DNA of 64,000 nt, taken from the sequence record OL770310; one strand, 5' to 3'. The notes under the pieces were generated by a model. It saw only the letters and a program-made list of their open reading frames with translations. It did not search any database and was not told where the DNA came from. Every line of letters starts with the position of its first letter. Position 1 is the stretch's first letter. Below are positions 9,429 to 60,183 of the stretch, piece after piece. The stretch is from Escherichia phage PSa2. Position numbers and translations under genes: made by a program.

Positions 9429-9457
9429 ATTATACCAATATATGCGGGAGAAAGCAA
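9429..9457 (-). promoter_or_regulatory. sigma70-type promoter for phoH operon (TTGCTT-N17-TATAAT)
   Basis: Reverse complement reads TTGCTT, 17 nt spacer, TATAAT, then ATATATTTGTAAGTTGATAAACAAG resembling the plus-strand leader module. Confidence 0.55.
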
Positions 9458-9649
9458 CTACAATTTTAAATAAGCCTATGATATTGCATTTAAATAAAAA
9501 ATTTGCTTGCTTTTATTGGGAGATGTATGGTACTAGATAATCATTTTATATCGCGTACACGGGCGCGTGATTATACTATTTTTAATAGAGGTTGGCAAAT
9601 AAAATTTTTTGACTCAGATCAATTTACAGAATGTTATAGTAAAATATTG

Positions 9650-9678
9650 TTGACATCCGCCTTCGAATGAGTTATAAT
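9650..9678 (+). promoter_or_regulatory. consensus sigma70 promoter upstream of nrdD (TTGACA-N17-TATAAT)
   Basis: Perfect -35 and -10 hexamers with 17 nt spacer; AGGAGGG SD at 9697..9703, ATG at 9708. Confidence 0.65.
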
Positions 9679-9707
9679 AGTAGTCTTAGTTAGAGAAGGA
9701 GGGTATA

Positions 9708-14411: not shown

Positions 14412-14807
14412 ATGGAACAAGTATTTTGGCGTCAGATAGATCCTAGTTTGGTAGAGCGTGCTGAGGGGCTCCTTGCACGTTGGTTGGGGGTTGACAAGGT
14501 TAGTGTAACATTTCCGTTTACTTCTGTAACAGACCCTAGTGTAGGTGTCTTTGTGGACGAAGATGAAGATGATGGTTGGGAAGCTGACTGGAATGAATTG
14601 TCCAGCATGGGCTTGATTGTTGCCCTCAACTTCTCTATATTCCACCCACGTGGTTTAGCTATTACACGTGATCCCGAAACCGGTGAATCCCCTTATCTTT
14701 TGCAAGTAGAAGATGATATTTGGGAGTACACCGAAGGTATTCTCGAAGAAGCTAAAGGTCAATTAAATCGTATTGGGATCTATGTCCCGGGCCTAAATGA
14801 TGATTGA
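14412..14807 (+). CDS. hypothetical acidic protein, paralogue B
   Basis: 131 aa, net charge about -19 by hand count; WNELSSMGLIVALN...TGESPYLLQV...GIYVPGL. Confidence 0.6.
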   Translation: MEQVFWRQIDPSLVERAEGLLARWLGVDKVSVTFPFTSVTDPSVGVFVDEDEDDGWEADWNELSSMGLIVALNFSIFHPRGLAITRDPETGESPYLLQVEDDIWEYTEGILEEAKGQLNRIGIYVPGLNDD

Positions 14808-14898
14808 TTTTCATTAGCTCAATCCTGATTACCGAGTCATTTTGGCTCGGTTTTCTCTGTGCTCAAAGACACTGATAGCACCTTCGGAAAAATTTTAC

Positions 14899-14927
14899 TT
14901 GCAGGATGCTCAAAATCTTGATATAAT
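14899..14927 (+). promoter_or_regulatory. early promoter module with no ORF behind it (TTGCAG-N17-TATAAT)
   Basis: -35 TTGCAG 14899..14904, -10 TATAAT 14922..14927, leader ATTTATATTGAATTGAGAGACATT; no start codon in the expected position. Confidence 0.5.
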
Positions 14928-15423
14928 ATTTATATTGAATTGAGAGACATTAGTAAAAATTGATTTTGCTAATTTTTCTTGTTTACAATCCGCAATACGG
15001 AACAGTTAGGCTGCCCCATTAAGGGTTGTTTTAACTATTACTAGTGTTTATACTGCATTAGTTAATTATCAATTAAGTGATCTGCGTACCCTGAATTCGG
15101 AAAGGTAAATCCAAACCGTGCATATTTAGCTCGTTATATAGGCAGAGCTTTATATGGGGGTGCGAACGAAAAGAGCAGCGAATGGTGACACGTCCAGTAG
15201 CCACCTACCAATAGGATAGTGAGGGCAATCAGAATCGGCTTAGCGGCCAATGACCTAGGTTCTGATCTGGATAAGAGTTAAGAGAGCGCAGCACTGAGGT
15301 ATGATAACTTATTCATACTGCTTGATGATGATTAATGTTTGTGTAAATGGTAGTAATAGTTGTTCTATTCTTTTGAATAGTCCTAAAGAAAGATATTCGA
15401 ATAACCAACATAGGAGTATTGTT

Positions 15424-18439: not shown

Positions 18440-18468
18440 TTGCTTTCAGGAAAAATTTTCTGTATAAT
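18440..18468 (+). promoter_or_regulatory. early promoter module (TTGCTT-N17-TATAAT)
   Basis: -35 18440..18445, -10 18463..18468, leader AGATTCATAAATTTGAGAGAGGAG, ATG 18500. Confidence 0.65.
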
Positions 18469-20688: not shown

Positions 20689-20717
20689 TTGCTTTAGACT
20701 CAGTTTTGTTATATAAT
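20689..20717 (+). promoter_or_regulatory. early promoter module (TTGCTT-N17-TATAAT)
   Basis: -35 20689..20694, -10 20712..20717, leader ATTTATATAAATTGATGAGAGAT, ATG 20749. Confidence 0.65.
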
Positions 20718-20748
20718 ATTTATATAAATTGATGAGAGATATAAATAA

Positions 20749-21720
20749 ATGACTAATGTAAAAGAATTTATTAAACGCTGTCAAGAAGCATATTATCAAG
20801 GTATGTCTTTAATCTCTGACGAAGAATATGATCGTCTGATTAAAAGATTCCCACTAGAGGAAGAAATCGGACCGAAAGGTGATATTCCTCATTTGTATCG
20901 TATGTATTCTTTGCAGAAAGTCTATTACGGTCGCGGTGATAAAGCTCCATTCAATCCATTAGGTCAGGTTGAAACTGATAAGTTAGATGGTTGTGCGATT
21001 TCTCTATTATATATTAATGGTGAATTTGTTCAAGCGTTAACTCGTGGTAACGGTATTCTAGGGAATGATGTAACGCATAATGTTAAAATGCTGAACATCC
21101 CCAAAACTATTTCCCAAAAAGTACCAACTCAAATCACTGGTGAAGTTCTCATTACTAAAGAAGTAGAGAACAAACGTAACTACGCTTCGGGTGCTATTAA
21201 CCTGAAAGACAGCGATGATTTCATCCAACGTATTGGTGAAGGTGGTTTAATCTTCGTTGCATACGGTATCCAGTGTTCAGCGGAAACAGTCGGTATTACA
21301 GAAGCCTATTTAAAAGATATGCTTTGGCTAGAGAATGAGAACTTCTTGACAGTTGTTAATGTTCGTTCCTTTTTTAAATGGATTCCGACGGACGGTAAAG
21401 TTGTTCGTATTAACGACAACAATAAATTCTTCCGTGAAGGTTGGACTAATAAATTTCCTCGTGGTGCATTTGCTATTAAAGAGGATGAAGAAGGCGAAAT
21501 TACCACACTTGTTAAAGTTGAATGGCAAGTAGGGGCTTCTGGTAAAGTAACTCCAGTTGGTTATTTCGAACCGGTGATTATTGATGATGCCACAATCGTT
21601 AAAGCAACTCTTAATAACGTTGATTATATTAACGCTCTCGATTTAGAGATCGGTTGCCAGATTCGAGTGATTCGTGCTGGTGGTGTAATCCCTTGTATAG
21701 TAGAGCGAGTATACGACTAA
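20749..21720 (+). CDS. NAD-dependent DNA ligase, N-terminal adenylation half
   Basis: Adenylation motif ETDKLDGCAISLLY (KxDG) and NAD-ligase Ia-like N-terminus. Confidence 0.8.
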   Translation: MTNVKEFIKRCQEAYYQGMSLISDEEYDRLIKRFPLEEEIGPKGDIPHLYRMYSLQKVYYGRGDKAPFNPLGQVETDKLDGCAISLLYINGEFVQALTRGNGILGNDVTHNVKMLNIPKTISQKVPTQITGEVLITKEVENKRNYASGAINLKDSDDFIQRIGEGGLIFVAYGIQCSAETVGITEAYLKDMLWLENENFLTVVNVRSFFKWIPTDGKVVRINDNNKFFREGWTNKFPRGAFAIKEDEEGEITTLVKVEWQVGASGKVTPVGYFEPVIIDDATIVKATLNNVDYINALDLEIGCQIRVIRAGGVIPCIVERVYD

Positions 21721-21770
21721 TTCGTAACCCTTTGCTACCCGTTTACCATGTCGGAATTATAAAGTGGTTA

Positions 21771-21799
21771 TTGACATTTTCGCCGCTTAGGTATATACT
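21771..21799 (+). promoter_or_regulatory. promoter between ligase halves (TTGACA-N17-TATACT)
   Basis: -35 TTGACA 21771..21776, -10 TATACT 21794..21799; only an 8-codon ORF downstream. Confidence 0.45.
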
Positions 21800-21863
21800 A
21801 TTATCATTCAGTTGAGGGATAGAAAGTTATGGCGAGGGTAAGCAAAGTTAGTTAAAATTGTAG

Positions 21864-21892
21864 TTGCTAAATGCTTAAATACTTGCTATAAT
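21864..21892 (+). promoter_or_regulatory. early promoter module (TTGCTA-N17-TATAAT)
   Basis: -35 21864..21869, -10 21887..21892, leader ATTTATATAAATTGATAAGGAAG, ATG 21920. Confidence 0.6.
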
Positions 21893-21919
21893 ATTTATAT
21901 AAATTGATAAGGAAGAAAT

Positions 21920-22702
21920 TTGATGAAAATCGAAATTCCAACACAATGTCCCTCTTGTGGTTCTAAGCTAGATCTTGTCAACGGGCAATTATTCTGTAGG
22001 AATAAGTCCAACTGTCCAGCGCAATCAAGTAAGTTAATCGAGAACTTCTGCACAAAAATGAAGTTAAAGGGCTTTGGCCCGAAAACTATTGAGAAGCTGG
22101 AGCTGACTAAGATCTCAGAACTGTTTTACCTGACCGAAGAAGATTTGGTAGGAGCTGTGGGTAGCAAGGTTGCCGCTAAATTGATTAGCGAGTTAAATAC
22201 TAAGGTTCGCGGAGACATTGACTTTGGTTCAGTTCTCGGTTCTTTAGGAATTCCTCTTATTGGAGAGGTTGCAGCAAAGAAACTGTCCCAAAATTGCACT
22301 AGCTTCCACGATGTGAAGGCTGACGGCAAGGCTGGAGAAAATTACAAAACCTGGCTAAATTCCCCACAAGGCAAGGATGTTATTGAATTACCGTGGAAAT
22401 TCTCAACTGGTATCCGAGGTGCTAAAGCTGACATCATCATTACAGATGATTTAGTTGCCCAGCCAAATGGAATCACGGTCTGTATTACCGGATCTTTGCA
22501 AGATTTTGCAAATCGAACGGATGCAACAAACTATTTAGAAAGTCTAGGGTATACGGTTAAGAAGTCCGTTACCAAAGACGTCAAATACCTAATCTGTGAG
22601 GATGAATCAAAACGTTCTTCCTCATCTTATAAGAAAGCCGAAACGAATGGGATAGAAATCCTGTCGATTAAAGAACTATTGGAGAAAAATAATAATGTCT
22701 AA
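21920..22702 (+). CDS. NAD-dependent DNA ligase, C-terminal half (Zn finger / HhH / BRCT-like)
   Basis: Cys4 zinc finger CPSCGSKLD...CRNKSNCPAQ typical of LigA, in a separate ORF from the adenylation domain. Confidence 0.8.
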   Translation: MMKIEIPTQCPSCGSKLDLVNGQLFCRNKSNCPAQSSKLIENFCTKMKLKGFGPKTIEKLELTKISELFYLTEEDLVGAVGSKVAAKLISELNTKVRGDIDFGSVLGSLGIPLIGEVAAKKLSQNCTSFHDVKADGKAGENYKTWLNSPQGKDVIELPWKFSTGIRGAKADIIITDDLVAQPNGITVCITGSLQDFANRTDATNYLESLGYTVKKSVTKDVKYLICEDESKRSSSSYKKAETNGIEILSIKELLEKNNNV

Positions 22703-23462
22703 ACTGAACTGGAACGTAGAAGGTGTAACCGAGTCTCTGAAAGCAAAAGCCACTGCTCTGGGTGTTGCTGTAATCTCTCAAGAACAAGTAGCTGCTATCG
22801 CTGCTGAACTGGCTACCGAGACTGGTAAAGACGTTACCGCTCGCTCTGTTGGCTCTAAGCTGCGTAAAGAAGGTTTCGAAGTACAGAAAGCTAACGAAGT
22901 ACAGAAATCCCCGTGGACTCCTGAGCAGGAAGCTGAACTGGTTGATTTCCTGAACGCTCATGCGGGTCAGTATACTTACGCTGAAATCGCTGCTGCTGTA
23001 GCTGGTGGTCAGTTCGGTGCTAAGCAGGTTCAGGGTAAGATCCTGAGTCTGGAAATGACTGCTTCTGTTAAGCCAACCGAAAAAGCTGCTGCTGTTCGTT
23101 CCTTCACTCCTGACGAAGAAACTGATTTCGTTAATCAGGTTGTTGCTGGTGCTACTATTGAAGCTATCGCTGCTCACTTTGGTCGCAATATTAAGCAGAT
23201 CCGTGGTAAAGCTCTGAGTCTGCTTCGTGAAGGTCGTATCGCTGCTATGCCGGTACAGGAAACTTCAAGTGCTAAAACTCGTGAAGATCTGTTAGAAGGT
23301 CTGGATCTGGCTAACATGACTGTTGCTGAGATCGCTGAGAAAACTGGTAAGTCTGAGCGCGGTGTTAAATCTATGCTGTCTCGTCGTGGTCTGGTTGCTA
23401 AGGACTATGATGGTGCCGCTAAGCGTGCTAAACTGGATGCAAAAGCTGCGGCTGCTGAATAA
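22695..23462 (+). CDS. protein with four tandem HTH-like repeats, host-like codon usage
   Basis: Four ~35 aa repeats (AAIAAELATETGKDVTARSVGSKLRKEG / AEIAAAVAGGQFGAKQVQGKILSL / EAIAAHFGRNIKQIRGKALSLLREG / AEIAEKTGKSERGVKSMLSRRG). Confidence 0.6.
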   Translation: MSKLNWNVEGVTESLKAKATALGVAVISQEQVAAIAAELATETGKDVTARSVGSKLRKEGFEVQKANEVQKSPWTPEQEAELVDFLNAHAGQYTYAEIAAAVAGGQFGAKQVQGKILSLEMTASVKPTEKAAAVRSFTPDEETDFVNQVVAGATIEAIAAHFGRNIKQIRGKALSLLREGRIAAMPVQETSSAKTREDLLEGLDLANMTVAEIAEKTGKSERGVKSMLSRRGLVAKDYDGAAKRAKLDAKAAAAE

Positions 23463-29024: not shown

Positions 29025-30373
29025 AGGTTGTTATATCTAATAAAGCCTATTTCAAGCCCGATGATGAACTCTGGGATTACTGTAGTAAGCAAACCACTTA
29101 TCACATCGAGACAATGACTAGTAAATACCCTATTATGTATAAGAATAGTGGTGTTGTTGCTAAAGAGATTAAGTGGATTCCTATTACGCGTCTGGATTTA
29201 CTAGATGCTAAGGGAGTAAAGTACGAATTAGTTGATAAACGTACGTTAGCTCCGGTAGAAATACCAGAACCTCAGTTCAAACTGCGTGAAGAAGATCAGC
29301 TTCCTATATATGAAGAGTGTGATGATACTTGTATTATCAATGGTAAGCCTGGGTTTGGTAAAACTATCCTAGCTCTTGCTCTTGCATATAAGTTTGGCCA
29401 GAAAACTCTGGTAATCTGCACCAACACATCCATTCGTGAAATGTGGGCTGCAGAAGTTCGTAAATGGTTTGGGTTTGAACCTGGTATTATTGGCTCTGGG
29501 AAGTATAATATTGATCCACCAATCGTGGTCAGTAATATACAAACAGTGAATAAACATGCGAATAATCTTTCTAAAGTGTTCGGTACTGTTATAGTTGATG
29601 AAGTACACCACTGTGTGGCTACAACTTTCACTAATTTCCTAGAGATCTCATGTGCTCGCTATAAGATTGGTCTATCTGGTACGTTAAAGCGTAAGGATGG
29701 CCTGCAAGTTATGTTCAAAGACTTCTTCGGATATAAGATCTTTAGTCCACCCGTTAATAATACTGTTCCACCTACAATCCATAGGTACTCCGTGCCTGTT
29801 GAGTTATCAGGTAACCAAAACGTACCCTGGGCATTACGTGCTAACGATGTGTATAATCATCCTGAATATCGAGAAACTATTATAAACCTAGCGCATTTAT
29901 ATGTGTCTATGGGACATAAGGTTCTCTTTGTAAGTGATAGGACGGAACTAATCCAAACAATACTAGAAGCTCTCGCACAACGTGGTGTTACAACCTATGA
30001 GATTATAGGTGCAACTCCTTTGGATGATCGATTGAGAATCCAGAAAGATGTAGCGGAGGGCGGACCTTGTGTACTTGCAGCAGCTCAGAGTATCTTCTCA
30101 GAAGGTATTTCTCTTAACGAGCTGTCTTGTTTAATAATGGGAAGTCTCATTAATAATGAATCTCTCATAGAACAGTTAGCAGGCCGCGTTCAACGTATTG
30201 TTGACGGAAAGCTAGATCCGATTGTTGTAGATTTAATTATGAAAGGAGGTACTGGTTTAAGACAGGCTTCTGGACGTATGGCCGTGTATCGCAATAATGC
30301 ATGGAAAACTATTACTATGACTCCGGAGAAAGCAGTACAATTAGCTAAAATTGCATTTGGCAACTGCTCATAA
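29021..30373 (+). CDS. SF2 DEAD/DEAH-box helicase
   Basis: Walker A NGKPGFGKT, DEAH-like box VIVDEVHH, motif III-like SGT. Confidence 0.8.
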   Translation: MKVVISNKAYFKPDDELWDYCSKQTTYHIETMTSKYPIMYKNSGVVAKEIKWIPITRLDLLDAKGVKYELVDKRTLAPVEIPEPQFKLREEDQLPIYEECDDTCIINGKPGFGKTILALALAYKFGQKTLVICTNTSIREMWAAEVRKWFGFEPGIIGSGKYNIDPPIVVSNIQTVNKHANNLSKVFGTVIVDEVHHCVATTFTNFLEISCARYKIGLSGTLKRKDGLQVMFKDFFGYKIFSPPVNNTVPPTIHRYSVPVELSGNQNVPWALRANDVYNHPEYRETIINLAHLYVSMGHKVLFVSDRTELIQTILEALAQRGVTTYEIIGATPLDDRLRIQKDVAEGGPCVLAAAQSIFSEGISLNELSCLIMGSLINNESLIEQLAGRVQRIVDGKLDPIVVDLIMKGGTGLRQASGRMAVYRNNAWKTITMTPEKAVQLAKIAFGNCS

Positions 30374-30456
30374 TTATTGTATAATATACACATAAATTTG
30401 AGAGAGAAAGTTTCGGATTGATAAGAAAGTCCGAAGCAGAAAAATAAAAATTGTAC

Positions 30457-30486
30457 TTGTCAAATCCTCCCGATTTAATGTATAAT
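30457..30486 (+). promoter_or_regulatory. early promoter module (TTGTCA-N18-TATAAT); a -10/leader copy without -35 sits at 30380..30410
   Basis: -10 TATAAT 30481..30486, leader ATATATACATAAATTGATGAGAGAC, ATG 30516. Confidence 0.55.
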
Positions 30487-30515
30487 ATATATACATAAAT
30501 TGATGAGAGACAAAA

Positions 30516-30878
30516 ATGAAATTCTTTGATTACGAGAGAATTTACCTCTTAGCTAGAGGAAACTCCGACCTGATTGTCAAGCTATTTAATAGAATGCTTG
30601 CAGAGCCTGATGCTCACCAGTTACTGGTCGGTTCTTCATTCATCTTGAATGAATCAACTATTGTTGATAACCCTTACAAATTGTCTAATAGACAACTGGC
30701 AGAATATCTAGGAATTCTAAGTCTACGAAATTATGCCGAATATAAGTTTACAAACGATCCGAGTTTGGACATGCAATATGTTCCCATATGGATACCACGT
30801 TCTGTAATCGACACTAACCCACTAATTGCAATCAATAAATCGAAGATAATCTTTAAAGAGGAAATAAAATATGGCTAA
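30516..30878 (+). CDS. hypothetical protein
   Basis: 120 aa ORF behind a promoter/leader module. Confidence 0.5.
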   Translation: MKFFDYERIYLLARGNSDLIVKLFNRMLAEPDAHQLLVGSSFILNESTIVDNPYKLSNRQLAEYLGILSLRNYAEYKFTNDPSLDMQYVPIWIPRSVIDTNPLIAINKSKIIFKEEIKYG

Positions 30879-52760: not shown

Positions 52761-53246
52761 TTATCTGCGAAGTGCCCTACGAGGTGGCTGATACCTCACT
52801 GTTACATTTATTTCCGCTAAACCATATGGGGCCAGTAGACCTTCATCTGTAGCTACTGAGGTAATGCTCATATCAGTTGCCTCACATGGGAAGGTCGATC
52901 CATTAGGTTTACTAACAGTATATTCTAAATTTCCACCTGTGTCAATGACGGTTTTTATGTCAGCTACGAGTTTTTCAAGTTGCTCTTGAATATCTGTTTT
53001 CTCTTTGTCATACACGAAGATTGGAAGTTCTAAAAACATCCACTGTTGGCCTGAAGGAAGATACTGCCCAGTTTCAGTTCCGATATGGACTGCCACATAA
53101 GGAAATTCTCGGATTTCCTCAAATTTATAAGTTTGACGAGAAACGTTTCCATAAAGGTTATTGAAATACTCGTCAGGTTGTGAACCATCCATTTGTGTGG
53201 CGATTCGGTCAACCACTGCTTGTGCAATACTTGTTCTGTGATCCAT
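52761..53246 (-). CDS. tail terminator / neck protein (by position)
   Basis: 161 aa ORF between capsid-proximal genes and the tail tube. Confidence 0.4.
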   Translation of the reverse strand: MDHRTSIAQAVVDRIATQMDGSQPDEYFNNLYGNVSRQTYKFEEIREFPYVAVHIGTETGQYLPSGQQWMFLELPIFVYDKEKTDIQEQLEKLVADIKTVIDTGGNLEYTVSKPNGSTFPCEATDMSITSVATDEGLLAPYGLAEINVTVRYQPPRRALRR

Positions 53247-58866: not shown

Positions 58867-60183
58867 TTATTTCCCACGGGAAATTGAGTAAATTCCATAA
58901 CGCAGTGCGTCACAAAGGTGAGAGTTCGCATCATGACGTGGTTTTTCACGTGATAATTTCTCTTCGCCTTCCTGGAAGTCCCACTTGTAGTTCGCTAGGG
59001 CGTGGATCAATGAGGTACATGAAGCATCTACGATGATCTTGCCTTGCTGGAACAGTGCTTGCAGACATGCCAAACCATCTAGGACAGATTTCTTAGCAGG
59101 TGCAGAAGCGATTTCATGTTCATATGCTAAGTCCTGACGGAACTGAGCAGCAGCGGAGTCTACAAATATACGATCAACATTATAACGATCTATGCAGTGT
59201 TGGATATAAGCAGCGTGTTGAGCTGTAGTCTTTTCAGCTTGCTGATATTCTTCCAGTACGTAATAAACATCTTCATCGTAGTGATACTTAATAGTAAGAA
59301 CTGCTGTAGGATCACGATAACCAACGTCGATACCAAGTAATGTTTCGAATGCCTCATCATCTTTAAAGAAGTGACGCATACCTTTAAGGTCTTTAACATG
59401 CTCGATAGCATTGAAGGTATCAAAGATCTGACCTTCGAATACAGAGAAGTCAGCCTCATATTCTTGACGGAAGTAGTTTTTACTAACAGTACGACGAGCT
59501 TCCTCGATATCGTTTAGGTCAGCACGTGGGTTATCACGATACGTACCATGAATAGATACCCAGTTAGGTAACGTTTCATTAAATCCTTTTTCGTAGAACT
59601 CTTTGAACCAGTTACCACCACGAGGTGTAGAAATAAATAGAGCTTTAGAGTTTGGTTTATCTAGGGTAGGACGTAACTGAATATCGAAAGCTGCACCACC
59701 AACATCGGAAATAGCTGCTTCGTCAAAAATGATGAAGTCATAGGAACGACCAACCGCGGAGTCAGCCTGGGCCGCAGAAGCTAGTTTAAAGAGAGAACCA
59801 TTTGCTAGTTCAATCTCTTTATCTTTTGCGTTCTCACGTTCAGTCTGTAATCCATACTTCTTAATAAGACCACGAATCTGTGACCAACCTATGTTAGCCA
59901 GTGAGTAGTTAGGTGCAACTACTAGCACCTTCACATTGGGTTCCAGAAGTTTTAAGAACCCAAGAGTATATGCGATGAACGACTTACCTACACGACGTGA
60001 TACACATGCGGTCACGAAACGGTGTCTTGGGTCTTCCAATGCATTAATAATTGCAATTTGAGGGGCATTAGGTGTAATTCCCTCTTGTGCTAGGATGCTA
60101 GAGACTGGTAGACGAAAGAATCGTTTGTCAATACCAAAGTCAATAACATCTGTGGTGTTAATATAGTCTCTAGAGACTTTCAT
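58867..60183 (-). CDS. terminase large subunit
   Basis: ATPase Walker A-like ACVSRRVGKS and Walker B DFIIFDEAA; C-terminal nuclease-size region; 438 aa. Confidence 0.85.
   Translation of the reverse strand: MKVSRDYINTTDVIDFGIDKRFFRLPVSSILAQEGITPNAPQIAIINALEDPRHRFVTACVSRRVGKSFIAYTLGFLKLLEPNVKVLVVAPNYSLANIGWSQIRGLIKKYGLQTERENAKDKEIELANGSLFKLASAAQADSAVGRSYDFIIFDEAAISDVGGAAFDIQLRPTLDKPNSKALFISTPRGGNWFKEFYEKGFNETLPNWVSIHGTYRDNPRADLNDIEEARRTVSKNYFRQEYEADFSVFEGQIFDTFNAIEHVKDLKGMRHFFKDDEAFETLLGIDVGYRDPTAVLTIKYHYDEDVYYVLEEYQQAEKTTAQHAAYIQHCIDRYNVDRIFVDSAAAQFRQDLAYEHEIASAPAKKSVLDGLACLQALFQQGKIIVDASCTSLIHALANYKWDFQEGEEKLSREKPRHDANSHLCDALRYGIYSISRGK

What the first reader, a model, noticed from the sequence alone, without database searches (positions are those of the whole stretch)
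21771..21919. Promoter between the ligase halves with no ORF behind it
TTGACA-N17-TATACT at 21771..21799 is followed by about 60 nt containing only an 8-codon ORF (MARVSKVS) before the next promoter module. Together with the leader-only copies at 14922 and 30380 this suggests short non-coding transcripts or tandem promoters.
Basis: inference. Interest (0 to 1): 0.35.

Follow-up and report, generated by a model that had tools for sequence, protein, structure and literature searches.

The report
Known tandem T5 promoters before ligB
The "orphan" promoter between the two DNA-ligase genes is the counterpart of phage T5's named promoter P-K28b, the upstream member of a known tandem pair (P-K28b/P-K28a) in front of ligB and the replication genes, so it is ordinary and already annotated, not a small-RNA gene.

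Summary
The window is a T5-like phage (Epseptimavirus, 99.9% identical to SE24/Eps7). TTGACA-N17-TATACT lies at 21771-21799, the 8-codon ORF MARVSKVS at 21829-21855, and a second promoter, TTGCTA-N17-(TG)TATAAT, at 21864-21892. ligB starts at 21923.

The two sites match the features that the T5 reference records call "promoter P-K 28b" and "promoter P-K 28a". The window is base-for-base identical to AY543070 over both features and differs from AY587007 at one base.

No terminator separates the two promoters: the longest T run is 3. The mini-ORF start codon is lost outside the subfamily, and no Rfam family reaches its threshold. A P-K28b transcript is therefore most simply a longer-leader (117 nt) ligB mRNA, not a short non-coding RNA.

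New but incremental points:
- The pair is kept upstream of ligB in every Demerecviridae lineage sampled. The upstream promoter has a consensus -35; the downstream one has TTGC-type -35 plus an extended -10. Start-to-start spacing is 86-97 bp.
- More distant relatives have one consensus promoter in the same ligase split.
- The whole 162-bp block is 10-40 times less variable than synonymous sites.
- A sense-strand RNA hairpin (z about -3.5 to -4.5) is predicted but is not conserved in register.

Verdict: real and functional, already known.

The parts
20749..21720 (+). ligA: NAD-dependent DNA ligase subunit A (adenylation and OB-fold domains). Its stop codon opens the 202-bp gap before the ligB ATG.
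   Evidence: ORF. Pfam DNA_ligase_aden (E 3e-23) and DNA_ligase_OB (E 9e-22). Annotated as ligA in relatives.
21751..21825 (+). Homologue of T5 promoter P-K28b, the promoter in the finding. -35 TTGACA is at 21771-21776 and -10 TATACT at 21794-21799. The inferred start site is A at 21806. It has no TG extension and no A-tract upstream.
   Evidence: Scan. Base-for-base identical to the 75-bp feature 'promoter P-K 28b' of AY543070 (66366-66440), mapped by the constant offset 19884. Also annotated in AY692264, AY587007 as T5P36 and S114. The start site is inferred from the -55..+20 layout of these 75-bp features, checked on P-J5.
21829..21855 (+). 8-codon mini-ORF MARVSKVS. Its ATG sits 23 nt after the inferred start site, within the 20-25 nt distance at which real genes start behind T5 promoter modules. 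It is probably an unselected by-product.
   Evidence: Translation. Start distances of 20-25 nt for real genes. The ATG is replaced in Sugarland (TTG, 4 codons), in L047 (ACG) and is absent in the Vibrio phages.
21844..21918 (+). Homologue of T5 promoter P-K28a. It has an A/T-rich upstream block, -35 TTGCTA at 21864-21869, TG at 21884-21885, and -10 TATAAT at 21887-21892. The inferred start site is A at 21899, followed by the leader ATAAATTGATAAGGAAG.
   Evidence: Feature 'promoter P-K 28a' in AY543070 and AY692264. T5P37 plus 'repeat b copy 5' in AY587007. Fits the published T5-like consensus TTGCTw / TATAATA with AAAAATT near -43 and TAAATT near +1 (PMC3326045).
21808..21907 (+). Predicted long imperfect hairpin in the P-K28b-initiated RNA only. 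Its 3' arm is the P-K28a -35, spacer and -10 sequence, and it ends just before the ligB Shine-Dalgarno. Its status is uncertain.
   Evidence: Sense RNA: MFE -26.1 to -29.4 kcal/mol, z -3.5 to -4.5. Antisense RNA: z -0.7. DNA: z -0.7. No Watson-Crick inverted repeat of 8 nt or more. Not conserved in register.
21909..22702 (+). ligB: Shine-Dalgarno AAGGAAG at 21909-21915, ATG at 21923, stop codon ending at 22702. It encodes the Zn-finger, HhH and BRCT half of the ligase and is the first gene served by both promoters. D5 (22695-23462) overlaps its end.
   Evidence: Pfam BRCT. Annotations.
30357..30486 (+). A second tandem pair of the same design: TTGGCA-17-TATAAT at 30357-30385, a leader with no ORF, then TTGTCA-18-TATAAT at 30457-30486 before the gene at 30516.
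   Evidence: T5 annotates the first leader as 'repeat c copy 7' and the second site as promoter T5P38.
14899..14989 (+). T5-type promoter TTGCAG-17-TATAAT (14899-14927) with its leader, followed by a weaker promoter-like site at 14960-14989. No ORF follows for about 367 nt.
   Evidence: Annotated as a promoter in T5 (58999-59073) and as 'putative promoter' in S114.

Best explanation
The site at 21771-21799 is the Epseptimavirus copy of phage T5 promoter P-K28b. It is the upstream member of a tandem pair of host sigma-70 promoters (P-K28b, then P-K28a 93 bp downstream). The pair lies in the gap that splits the NAD-dependent ligase gene and drives ligB, D5 and probably the replication genes beyond.

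RNA polymerase starting at P-K28b (about 21806) meets no terminator. It reads through the P-K28a sequence into ligB and gives an mRNA with a 117-nt leader. Polymerase starting at P-K28a (about 21899) gives the same mRNA with a 24-nt leader.

The two 75-bp promoter features (21751-21825 and 21844-21918) almost tile the intergenic block. This would explain why the apparently empty 60 nt are as conserved as the hexamers. It would also explain why the spacing stays near 93 bp, which is far enough for two polymerases to sit side by side.

The conserved sequence after the -10 element is probably part of the promoter module, not a gene. The 8-codon ORF is probably incidental.

Shown here: the sequence elements, their homology to the annotated T5 promoters, the absence of a terminator, and the conservation. 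Inferred: the start sites, read-through, and simultaneous occupancy by two polymerases.
For: Identity of the window: 99.9% to Salmonella phage SE24 and Eps7 over 20700-22750; 455 phage records match.

Named features in T5 records:
- AY543070 has 'promoter P-K 28b' at 66366-66440 and 'promoter P-K 28a' at 66459-66533, between ligA and ligB.
- AY692264 has the same names, while other promoters in that record are labelled 'putative'.
- AY587007 calls them T5P36 and T5P37.
- S114 calls them 'P-K 28b-like' and 'P-K 28a-like'.
- The window is identical to AY543070 over both 75-bp features. It differs from AY587007 at one base from the -35 of P-K28b to the ligB ATG.

No terminator: none is predicted between 21800 and 21920, and the longest T run in 21806-21922 is 3.

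Conservation across the family: 14 representatives each have exactly two strong sites. They include Sugarlandvirus, Novosibvirus, Thalassavirus, other Vibrio phages and Shenzhenvirus, with ligB only 42-72% identical. The downstream -35 lies 52-60 nt before the ligB start and the upstream -35 lies 145-155 nt before it. Start-to-start distance is 86-97 bp, mean 93.5.

Purifying selection: among 29 Markadamsvirinae, diversity in 21761-21922 is 0.003-0.010. It is 0.10-0.14 at third codon positions of ligA and ligB, and 0.057 in the 40 bp after the ligA stop.

Recurrence: the same tandem design occurs at 30357/30457, at 14899/14960 and, on the minus strand, at 9598/9457.
Against: No transcript data for this phage or for T5 at this locus could be read. 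The 1985 paper that named the promoters (Gentz and Bujard, PMC214212) is not held. Activity of P-K28b therefore rests on the GenBank feature names and on my recollection of that work.

P-K28b departs from the published T5 early-promoter consensus. It lacks TTGCTw, the A-tract near -43, the ATATT discriminator and TAAATT at +1 (PMC3326045; PMC7472727). The AKFV33 record annotates only the downstream promoter.

A strongly non-random sense-strand RNA fold (z -3.5 to -4.5) is not explained by a plain tandem-promoter reading.
Confidence: 0.85

Rival explanations
1. The two promoters are not redundant. P-K28b is a different regulatory class from P-K28a, so the pair extends or shifts expression of ligB, D5 and the replication genes through the infection. 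One possibility is that a phage factor affecting -35 recognition switches one promoter off while the extended -10 promoter stays on. Another is that P-K28b works at late times.
For: In all sampled genera the upstream promoter has TTGAC[A/G/C] and no TG extension. The downstream one has TTGC[T/C]x plus TG before the -10. P-K28b has the same hexamers and spacer length (TTGACA-17-TATACT) as T5 promoter P-J5, which PMC7472727 classes as late. That paper reports that early promoters identified so far carry ATATT in the discriminator region; P-K28a has it and P-K28b does not. D5, encoded just downstream, matches Pfam Sigma-70 region 4.
Against: This is purely sequence-based. AY587007 labels both sites 'putative early'. 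P-G25, also classed as late, contains ATATT, so the discriminator rule is not clean. No expression data are available.
Confidence: 0.25
2. The 117-nt leader of the P-K28b transcript is a regulatory or stabilising RNA element. It would be a long hairpin (21808-21907) that distinguishes this isoform from the P-K28a isoform in stability, processing (for example by RNase III) or translation. The mini-ORF might act as an upstream ORF that opens the hairpin.
For: The sense RNA folds far better than shuffles, at z -3.5 to -4.5 with 0-1 of 200 shuffles as good. The antisense RNA and the DNA do not, at z -0.7, so the fold depends on G-U pairs. All 11 genus-level leaders have negative z. The 30392-30519 leader of another tandem pair has z -5.1. 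The mini-ORF has a Shine-Dalgarno-like GAGGGA and an ATG at the distance seen for real genes.
Against: RNAalifold finds no consensus pair among 11 divergent leaders. Z-scores in other genera are weak, from -0.4 to -2.9. Control 120-nt stretches upstream of single-promoter genes average z -1.75, so promoter regions are generally 'structured'. Of four substitutions inside predicted pairs within the subfamily, three break a pair and none is compensated. The mini-ORF start is not conserved.
Confidence: 0.15
3. P-K28b makes a discrete short non-coding RNA of about 60-90 nt. The RNA would end before or at P-K28a, for instance because polymerase bound at P-K28a blocks elongation.
For: An open complex at the downstream promoter, about 93 bp away, could in principle block elongation (inference only). 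The stretch 21806-21863 is highly conserved.
Against: There is no intrinsic terminator and no T run. The 65-nt RNA 21806-21870 is unstructured, at z +1.4. No Rfam family reaches its threshold. The sequence between the two promoter cores is not conserved between genera. Conservation within the subfamily is explained by the two adjoining promoter features.
Confidence: 0.05
4. P-K28b is a decaying relic. It would be the original single promoter, leader and start codon of ligB, stranded when the P-K28a module was inserted, and now without function.
For: More distant metagenomic relatives (ligB 36-44% identical) have a single TTGACA/T-17-TATAAT promoter between ligA and ligB. The P-K28b leader keeps a Shine-Dalgarno-like sequence and an ATG at the module's usual distance.
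Against: The hexamers are invariant. Diversity is 0.003, against 0.10-0.14 at synonymous sites. The promoter is retained at the same position in every sampled Demerecviridae genus. The origin story may be right, but loss of function is not supported.
Confidence: 0.03

Closest known systems
Bacteriophage T5 promoters P-K28b and P-K28a (named features in GenBank AY543070 and AY692264; T5P36/T5P37 in AY587007)
   Same: Same position between ligA and ligB. Same hexamers, spacers and leaders. The window is base-for-base identical to AY543070 over both 75-bp features and differs from AY587007 at one base.
   Different: Nothing of substance. The host phage is an Epseptimavirus (SE24/Eps7-like) rather than T5 itself, and activity has not been measured in this phage.
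General T5-type early promoter module (TTGCTw, 17-18 bp, TATAATA, A/T block near -43, TAAATT near +1; Niu et al. 2012, PMC3326045)
   Same: P-K28a fits the module fully. About 15 further copies are present in the window, including the P-N25 and P-N26 homologues at 18440 and 19472.
   Different: P-K28b does not fit. It has a consensus -35 TTGACA, a -10 TATACT, no upstream A-tract and no TAAATT at +1. Its hexamers equal those of the late promoter P-J5.
Tandem promoters of other phages, such as T7 promoters 1.1A/1.1B, and T4-type 'promoter-early stem-loop' cassettes (PeSLs; Arbiol et al. 2010). Both are cited from my own knowledge.
   Same: Closely spaced co-directional strong promoters in front of replication genes. 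Small repeated promoter cassettes sit in intergenic gaps and may move or recombine as modules.
   Different: T7 1.1A/1.1B use the phage polymerase and lie at the primary origin of replication. PeSLs combine a terminator stem-loop with a promoter. Here there is no terminator between the promoters, and no evidence of mobility or origin function.
Split NAD-dependent DNA ligase of T5-like phages (ligA and ligB)
   Same: The break lies after the OB fold and before the Zn finger in all relatives examined, including distant metagenomic ones.
   Different: The content of the gap varies: one promoter in distant relatives, two in Demerecviridae, and extra genes between ligA and the promoter pair in Vibrio and Proteus phages.

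Membership tests
T5 promoter P-K28b (orthologue) | Lies between ligA and ligB, upstream of P-K28a, on the coding strand | tested here: met
   Window layout. The same layout, with the named features, is in AY543070, AY692264 and S114.
T5 promoter P-K28b (orthologue) | Sequence identity with the annotated T5 feature | tested here: met
   The 75-bp feature L012:1867-1941 equals window 21751-21825 base for base. The alignment agrees.
T5 promoter P-K28b (orthologue) | Recognised and used by E. coli sigma-70 RNA polymerase | not testable with these tools
   This rests on the unqualified 'promoter P-K 28b' label in the T5 records and on the 1985 work, which could not be read.
Sigma-70 promoter | -35 and -10 hexamers close to consensus with a 17 +/- 1 bp spacer | tested here: met
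   TTGACA-17-TATACT, 11 of 12 matches. There are 7 such sites in the window against 2.3 expected.
T5 early-promoter consensus | TTGCTw -35, TATAATA -10, A/T block near -43, ATATT discriminator, TAAATT near +1 | tested here: not met
   P-K28b has TTGACA, TATACTA, the upstream sequence GGAATTATAAAGTGGTTA and the downstream sequence TTATCATTCAG. P-K28a meets all five features. The consensus comes from PMC3326045 and PMC7472727.
Tandem promoters for one operon | Two co-directional promoters with no terminator and no conserved gene between them, and a shared downstream gene | tested here: met
   no terminator; no ORF of 30 aa or more; mini-ORF not conserved.
Small non-coding RNA gene | Own terminator or defined 3' end | tested here: not met
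   No hairpin followed by a T run. The longest T run in 21806-21922 is 3.
Small non-coding RNA gene | Conserved sequence or structure of the transcribed part across relatives, or a match to a known family | tested here: not met
   Rfam gathering search gave 0 hits. The best permissive match had E 0.93 at 14 bits. RNAalifold found 0 consensus pairs.
Leader peptide / upstream ORF | Start codon, frame and peptide conserved in relatives | tested here: not met
   The ATG is present only in Markadamsvirinae, and also in Providencia phage PR1 with an unrelated 9-codon peptide. It is TTG in Sugarland, ACG in L047 and absent in the Vibrio phages.

The most novel reading that the evidence does not exclude
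The two-promoter unit in front of ligB is a selected regulatory device kept across the whole family Demerecviridae, not a simple doubling of promoter strength. The unit is a consensus -35 promoter about 93 bp upstream of a TTGC-type, extended -10 promoter, placed at the break of the ligase gene. The two promoters would respond differently to phage-induced changes of host RNA polymerase. The longer transcript would carry a structured leader that changes its fate. Under this reading the ligase split itself would be maintained because it houses this internal control point for the replication operon.
Probability: 0.2. Interest if true: 0.4.

Novelty: already known. Interest (0 to 1): 0.12.

Why it matters
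The finding itself matters little, because these promoters are already named features of the T5 reference genomes. The useful outcome is negative: there is no reason to chase small RNAs here.

Three by-products may interest phage transcription specialists:
- The pair is conserved in position, architecture and spacing across genera whose ligB proteins are only 42-57% identical.
- Even distant relatives keep a promoter exactly at the ligase split.
- The whole 162-bp block is 10-40 times less variable than synonymous sites.

Together these suggest that the internal promoter unit, rather than chance, may help keep the ligase gene in two pieces. They also give a natural pair of contrasting sigma-70 promoter designs for testing how T5 reprograms host RNA polymerase.

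Tried and rejected
- **Known RNA families.** The Rfam gathering search of the whole window found nothing. Permissive searches of 21650-21980 and 14780-15330 gave only chance-level matches. No tRNA or tmRNA was found.
- **Conserved RNA structure.** RNAalifold on 11 divergent leaders returned 0 pairs.
- **DNA palindrome or operator.** There is no inverted repeat of 8 nt or more apart from the trivial ATTTATATAAAT. Folding as DNA gives z -0.7.
- **Hairpins specific to tandem leaders.** Control regions upstream of single-promoter genes are about as structured, at mean z -1.75. The minus-strand pair 9598/9457 gives z +0.6. I therefore do not claim this.
- **Mini-ORF as a gene.** It is not conserved.
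- **Literature.** The names PK28a/PK28b occur in no searchable paper. The 1985 source is not held. No T5 transcriptome or start-site map was found. The one text-held supplementary file of PMC7472727 contains none of the searched promoter names.
- **Replication-origin idea.** I considered it by analogy with T7 promoters 1.1A/1.1B, but could not test it and have no evidence for it.
- **A memory error caught.** I first recalled the TTGACA...TATACT sequence at minus-strand 52945 as P-D/E20. The T5 record labels it P-J5.

Full report
**What the window is.** The stretch 20700-22750 is 99.9% identical to Salmonella phage SE24 and Escherichia phage Eps7 (genus Epseptimavirus, family Demerecviridae). 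It matches 455 phage records, 430 of them over at least 80% of the query.

The genes around the finding are:
- ligA, 20749-21720, with the adenylation and OB-fold domains;
- ligB, ATG at 21923 and stop codon ending at 22702, with a BRCT domain and a weak HhH match;
- D5, 22695-23462.

The finding lies in the 202-bp gap between the ligA stop and the ligB ATG.

**Checking the observation.** Every element is present at the stated coordinates:
- TTGACA at 21771-21776, a 17-nt spacer, and TATACT at 21794-21799;
- the ORF MARVSKVS* at 21829-21855;
- a second promoter, TTGCTA at 21864-21869 and TATAAT at 21887-21892, with TG at 21884-21885;
- the Shine-Dalgarno sequence AAGGAAG at 21909-21915.

An 11-of-12 match alone is weak evidence. 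The window has 7 such sites on both strands, against 2.3 +/- 1.6 in simulated sequence. Its position in a short intergenic gap and its invariance in relatives are what make it convincing.

**What it is.** Two T5 reference records annotate exactly these two sites, between ligA and ligB, as 'promoter P-K 28b' and 'promoter P-K 28a'. They are AY543070 and AY692264, and in AY692264 several other promoters are only 'putative'. AY587007 calls them 'putative early promoter T5P36' and 'T5P37', and marks 'repeat b copy 5' on the leader of T5P37. Salmonella phage S114 labels them 'P-K 28b-like' and 'P-K 28a-like'.

Offset mapping puts the two 75-bp T5 features at window 21751-21825 and 21844-21918. The offset of 19884 is the same at the ligA stop and at the ligB start. 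The window sequence is identical to AY543070 over both features.

The 75-bp features run from -55 to +20. I checked this on P-J5, where the -35 occupies feature positions 21-26 and the -10 positions 44-49. That layout places the start sites at A21806 and A21899, each seven bases after its -10 element. These start sites are inferred, not measured.

The names come from the promoter-cloning work of Gentz and Bujard (1985). PMC7472727 cites that work as the source of 19 T5 promoters identified by in vitro transcription. The paper itself is not held, so activity rests on the annotation.

**Is there a separate short transcript?** I find no support for one:
- No terminator is predicted between 21800 and 21920, and the longest T run in 21806-21922 is three.
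- The first 65 nt of the transcript are unstructured, at z +1.4.
- Rfam gives nothing at gathering thresholds and only chance-level matches at E up to 10.

The mini-ORF has a Shine-Dalgarno-like GAGGGA. Its ATG lies 23 nt after the inferred start, within the 20-25 nt at which real genes begin behind T5 promoter modules in this window. The start codon is not kept, however. It is TTG followed by four codons in Klebsiella phage Sugarland, ACG in L047 and absent in the Vibrio phages. Providencia phage PR1 has an unrelated nine-codon ORF at that place (L043 is identified as PR1 by its contig length of 118,537 bp).

The simplest reading is that a P-K28b transcript is a ligB mRNA with a 117-nt leader, and that the mini-ORF is incidental.

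- At 30357-30385 a promoter overlaps the end of the D10 helicase gene. It is followed by a leader that T5 annotates as 'repeat c copy 7', and then by the promoter T5P38 (30457-30486) before the gene at 30516.
- At 14899-14927 a promoter annotated in T5 and S114 is followed by about 367 nt without an ORF, before the gene for the putative replication-origin-binding protein.
- A fourth pair lies on the minus strand at 9598/9457.

The AT-rich +1 region TAAATT has been described as part of the T5-like promoter consensus (PMC3326045). A leader without an ORF is therefore not evidence of a gene.

**Conservation beyond T5.** I collected the ligB upstream region from named phages of other genera and from 80 IMG/VR loci. 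Fourteen representatives were analysed, with ligB proteins 42-72% identical to the window outside Markadamsvirinae. Under a strict criterion (TTG at the -35, at least 5 of 6 matches in the -10), each shows exactly two sites. The downstream -35 lies 52-60 nt before the ligB start and the upstream -35 lies 145-155 nt before it. Start-to-start distances are 86-97 bp, mean 93.5.

The upstream promoter always has TTGAC[A/G/C] and no TG. The downstream one always has TTGC[T/C]x with TG before the -10.

In Vibrio and Proteus phages, extra genes sit between ligA and the pair. The pair therefore belongs to ligB, not to ligA.

More distant metagenomic relatives (ligB 36-44% identical) have the ligase split at the same point. 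In several of them ligA is visibly just upstream, and a single near-perfect TTGACA/T-17-TATAAT promoter sits before ligB. A promoter inside the ligase split is therefore old, and the second module is probably an addition in the T5-like lineage. That last step is inference.

**Selection.** Among 29 Markadamsvirinae genomes, nucleotide diversity is as follows:

| Region | Diversity |
|---|---|
| Third codon positions, ligA | 0.144 |
| Third codon positions, ligB | 0.102 |
| 40 bp after the ligA stop | 0.057 |
| 21761-21922, by sub-region | 0.000-0.010 |

The low-diversity block includes the 'empty' stretch 21829-21863. The two 75-bp promoter features leave only 18 nt uncovered, so two adjoining polymerase-binding sites could account for most of this constraint. 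They could also account for the conserved spacing. This is inference.

**An unexplained extra.** RNA from 21806 to the ligB start folds into one long imperfect hairpin (21808-21907). Its 3' arm is the P-K28a promoter sequence.

| Molecule folded | MFE (kcal/mol) | z-score |
|---|---|---|
| Sense RNA | -26 to -29 | -3.5 to -4.5 |
| Antisense RNA | -7.2 | -0.7 |
| DNA (+ strand) | -6.6 | -0.7 |

There is no Watson-Crick inverted repeat, so the fold depends on G-U pairs on the sense strand.

Several results argue against a function:
- Leaders from other genera give only z -0.4 to -2.9.
- RNAalifold finds no shared pair.
- Three of four subfamily substitutions inside predicted pairs break them, with no compensation.
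- Control regions upstream of single-promoter genes average z -1.75.

I treat the hairpin as possible but unproven, at a probability of about 0.15.

**A second lead.** P-K28b has the same hexamers and spacer length as P-J5 (TTGACA-17-TATACT). PMC7472727 lists P-J5 as a late promoter, and reports that the early promoters identified so far carry ATATT after the -10. P-K28a has ATATT and P-K28b does not. The two promoters may therefore belong to different regulatory classes. I give this a probability of about 0.25. There are no expression data, and P-G25, also late, contains ATATT.

**Verdict.** The 'tandem promoters' reading is right and the 'short non-coding transcript' reading is unsupported. 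The feature is already known and annotated in T5 and relatives, so interest is low. The family-wide conservation of the two-design promoter pair at the ligase split is an incremental comparative result.

Noticed in passing
window 14808-15300: About 490 bp has no ORF of 40 aa or more. It lies between a terminator (14831-14851) and the 970-aa gene homologous to T5.108, the 'putative replication origin binding protein'. A strong T5-type promoter at 14899-14927 is followed by an AU-rich hairpin plus a T-run (about 14948-14985). The region is about 95% identical in T5 and S114, but in 187 other records only the first 190-210 nt are shared. The RNA fold gives z -2.0 and there is no Rfam match. It could be a long structured leader, a non-coding RNA or origin DNA.
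   Followed up: partly
window 30392-30519: RNA from the upstream promoter of this tandem pair folds with z -5.1. A 10-bp hairpin lies at 30410-30437. A second helix pairs the -35 region of the downstream promoter with the Shine-Dalgarno region of the gene at 30516. That would hide the ribosome site only in the longer transcript.
   Followed up: partly
window 9429-9680: A minus-strand tandem pair (TTGCCA-17-TATAAT at 9598, TTGCTT-17-TATAAT at 9457) lies upstream of one 253-aa ORF. It sits back to back with the only perfect 12-of-12 consensus promoter in the window (+ strand, 9650-9678).
   Followed up: no
window 22695-23462 (D5): D5 is annotated in T5 as a DNA-binding protein required for DNA replication and late transcription. 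It passes the Pfam threshold for Sigma-70 region 4 (PF08281, 29.1 bits, E 8e-07). It is encoded directly downstream of the promoter pair.
   Followed up: no
L006 (Salmonella phage S132) 2311-2500: This relative carries a 160-bp insertion, containing a small ORF, between the ligA stop and the P-K28b homologue. The promoter pair itself is unchanged.
   Followed up: no
L051-L091 (IMG/VR metagenomic phage contigs): These distant relatives (ligB 36-44% identical) have the ligase split at the same residue. A single near-perfect TTGACA/T-17-TATAAT promoter, preceded by an A-tract, lies between the halves, in a gap much shorter than the 202 bp seen here.
   Followed up: partly
L009 (Vibrio phage Gary) 386-1344; L010 (Vibrio phage D254) 773-1537; L008 (Proteus phage PL1) 1149-1316: In these genera one to three extra genes lie between ligA and the promoter pair, including one annotated as DprA-like. 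The two ligase halves are therefore not always adjacent. In PL1 ligA itself appears to be annotated as 'DprA-like'.
   Followed up: no
window 52917-52945 (minus strand): This is the homologue of the T5 late promoter P-J5. It has the same hexamers and spacing (TTGACA-17-TATACT) as P-K28b and lies inside the tail-gene region.
   Followed up: partly
window 15301 versus T5 AY543070 59545: The 970-aa ORF is called from an ATG at 15301 here and in S114. In T5 the equivalent ATG is followed by an in-frame stop, and the CDS is annotated about 125 nt further downstream. The true start in this phage may also be downstream.
   Followed up: no
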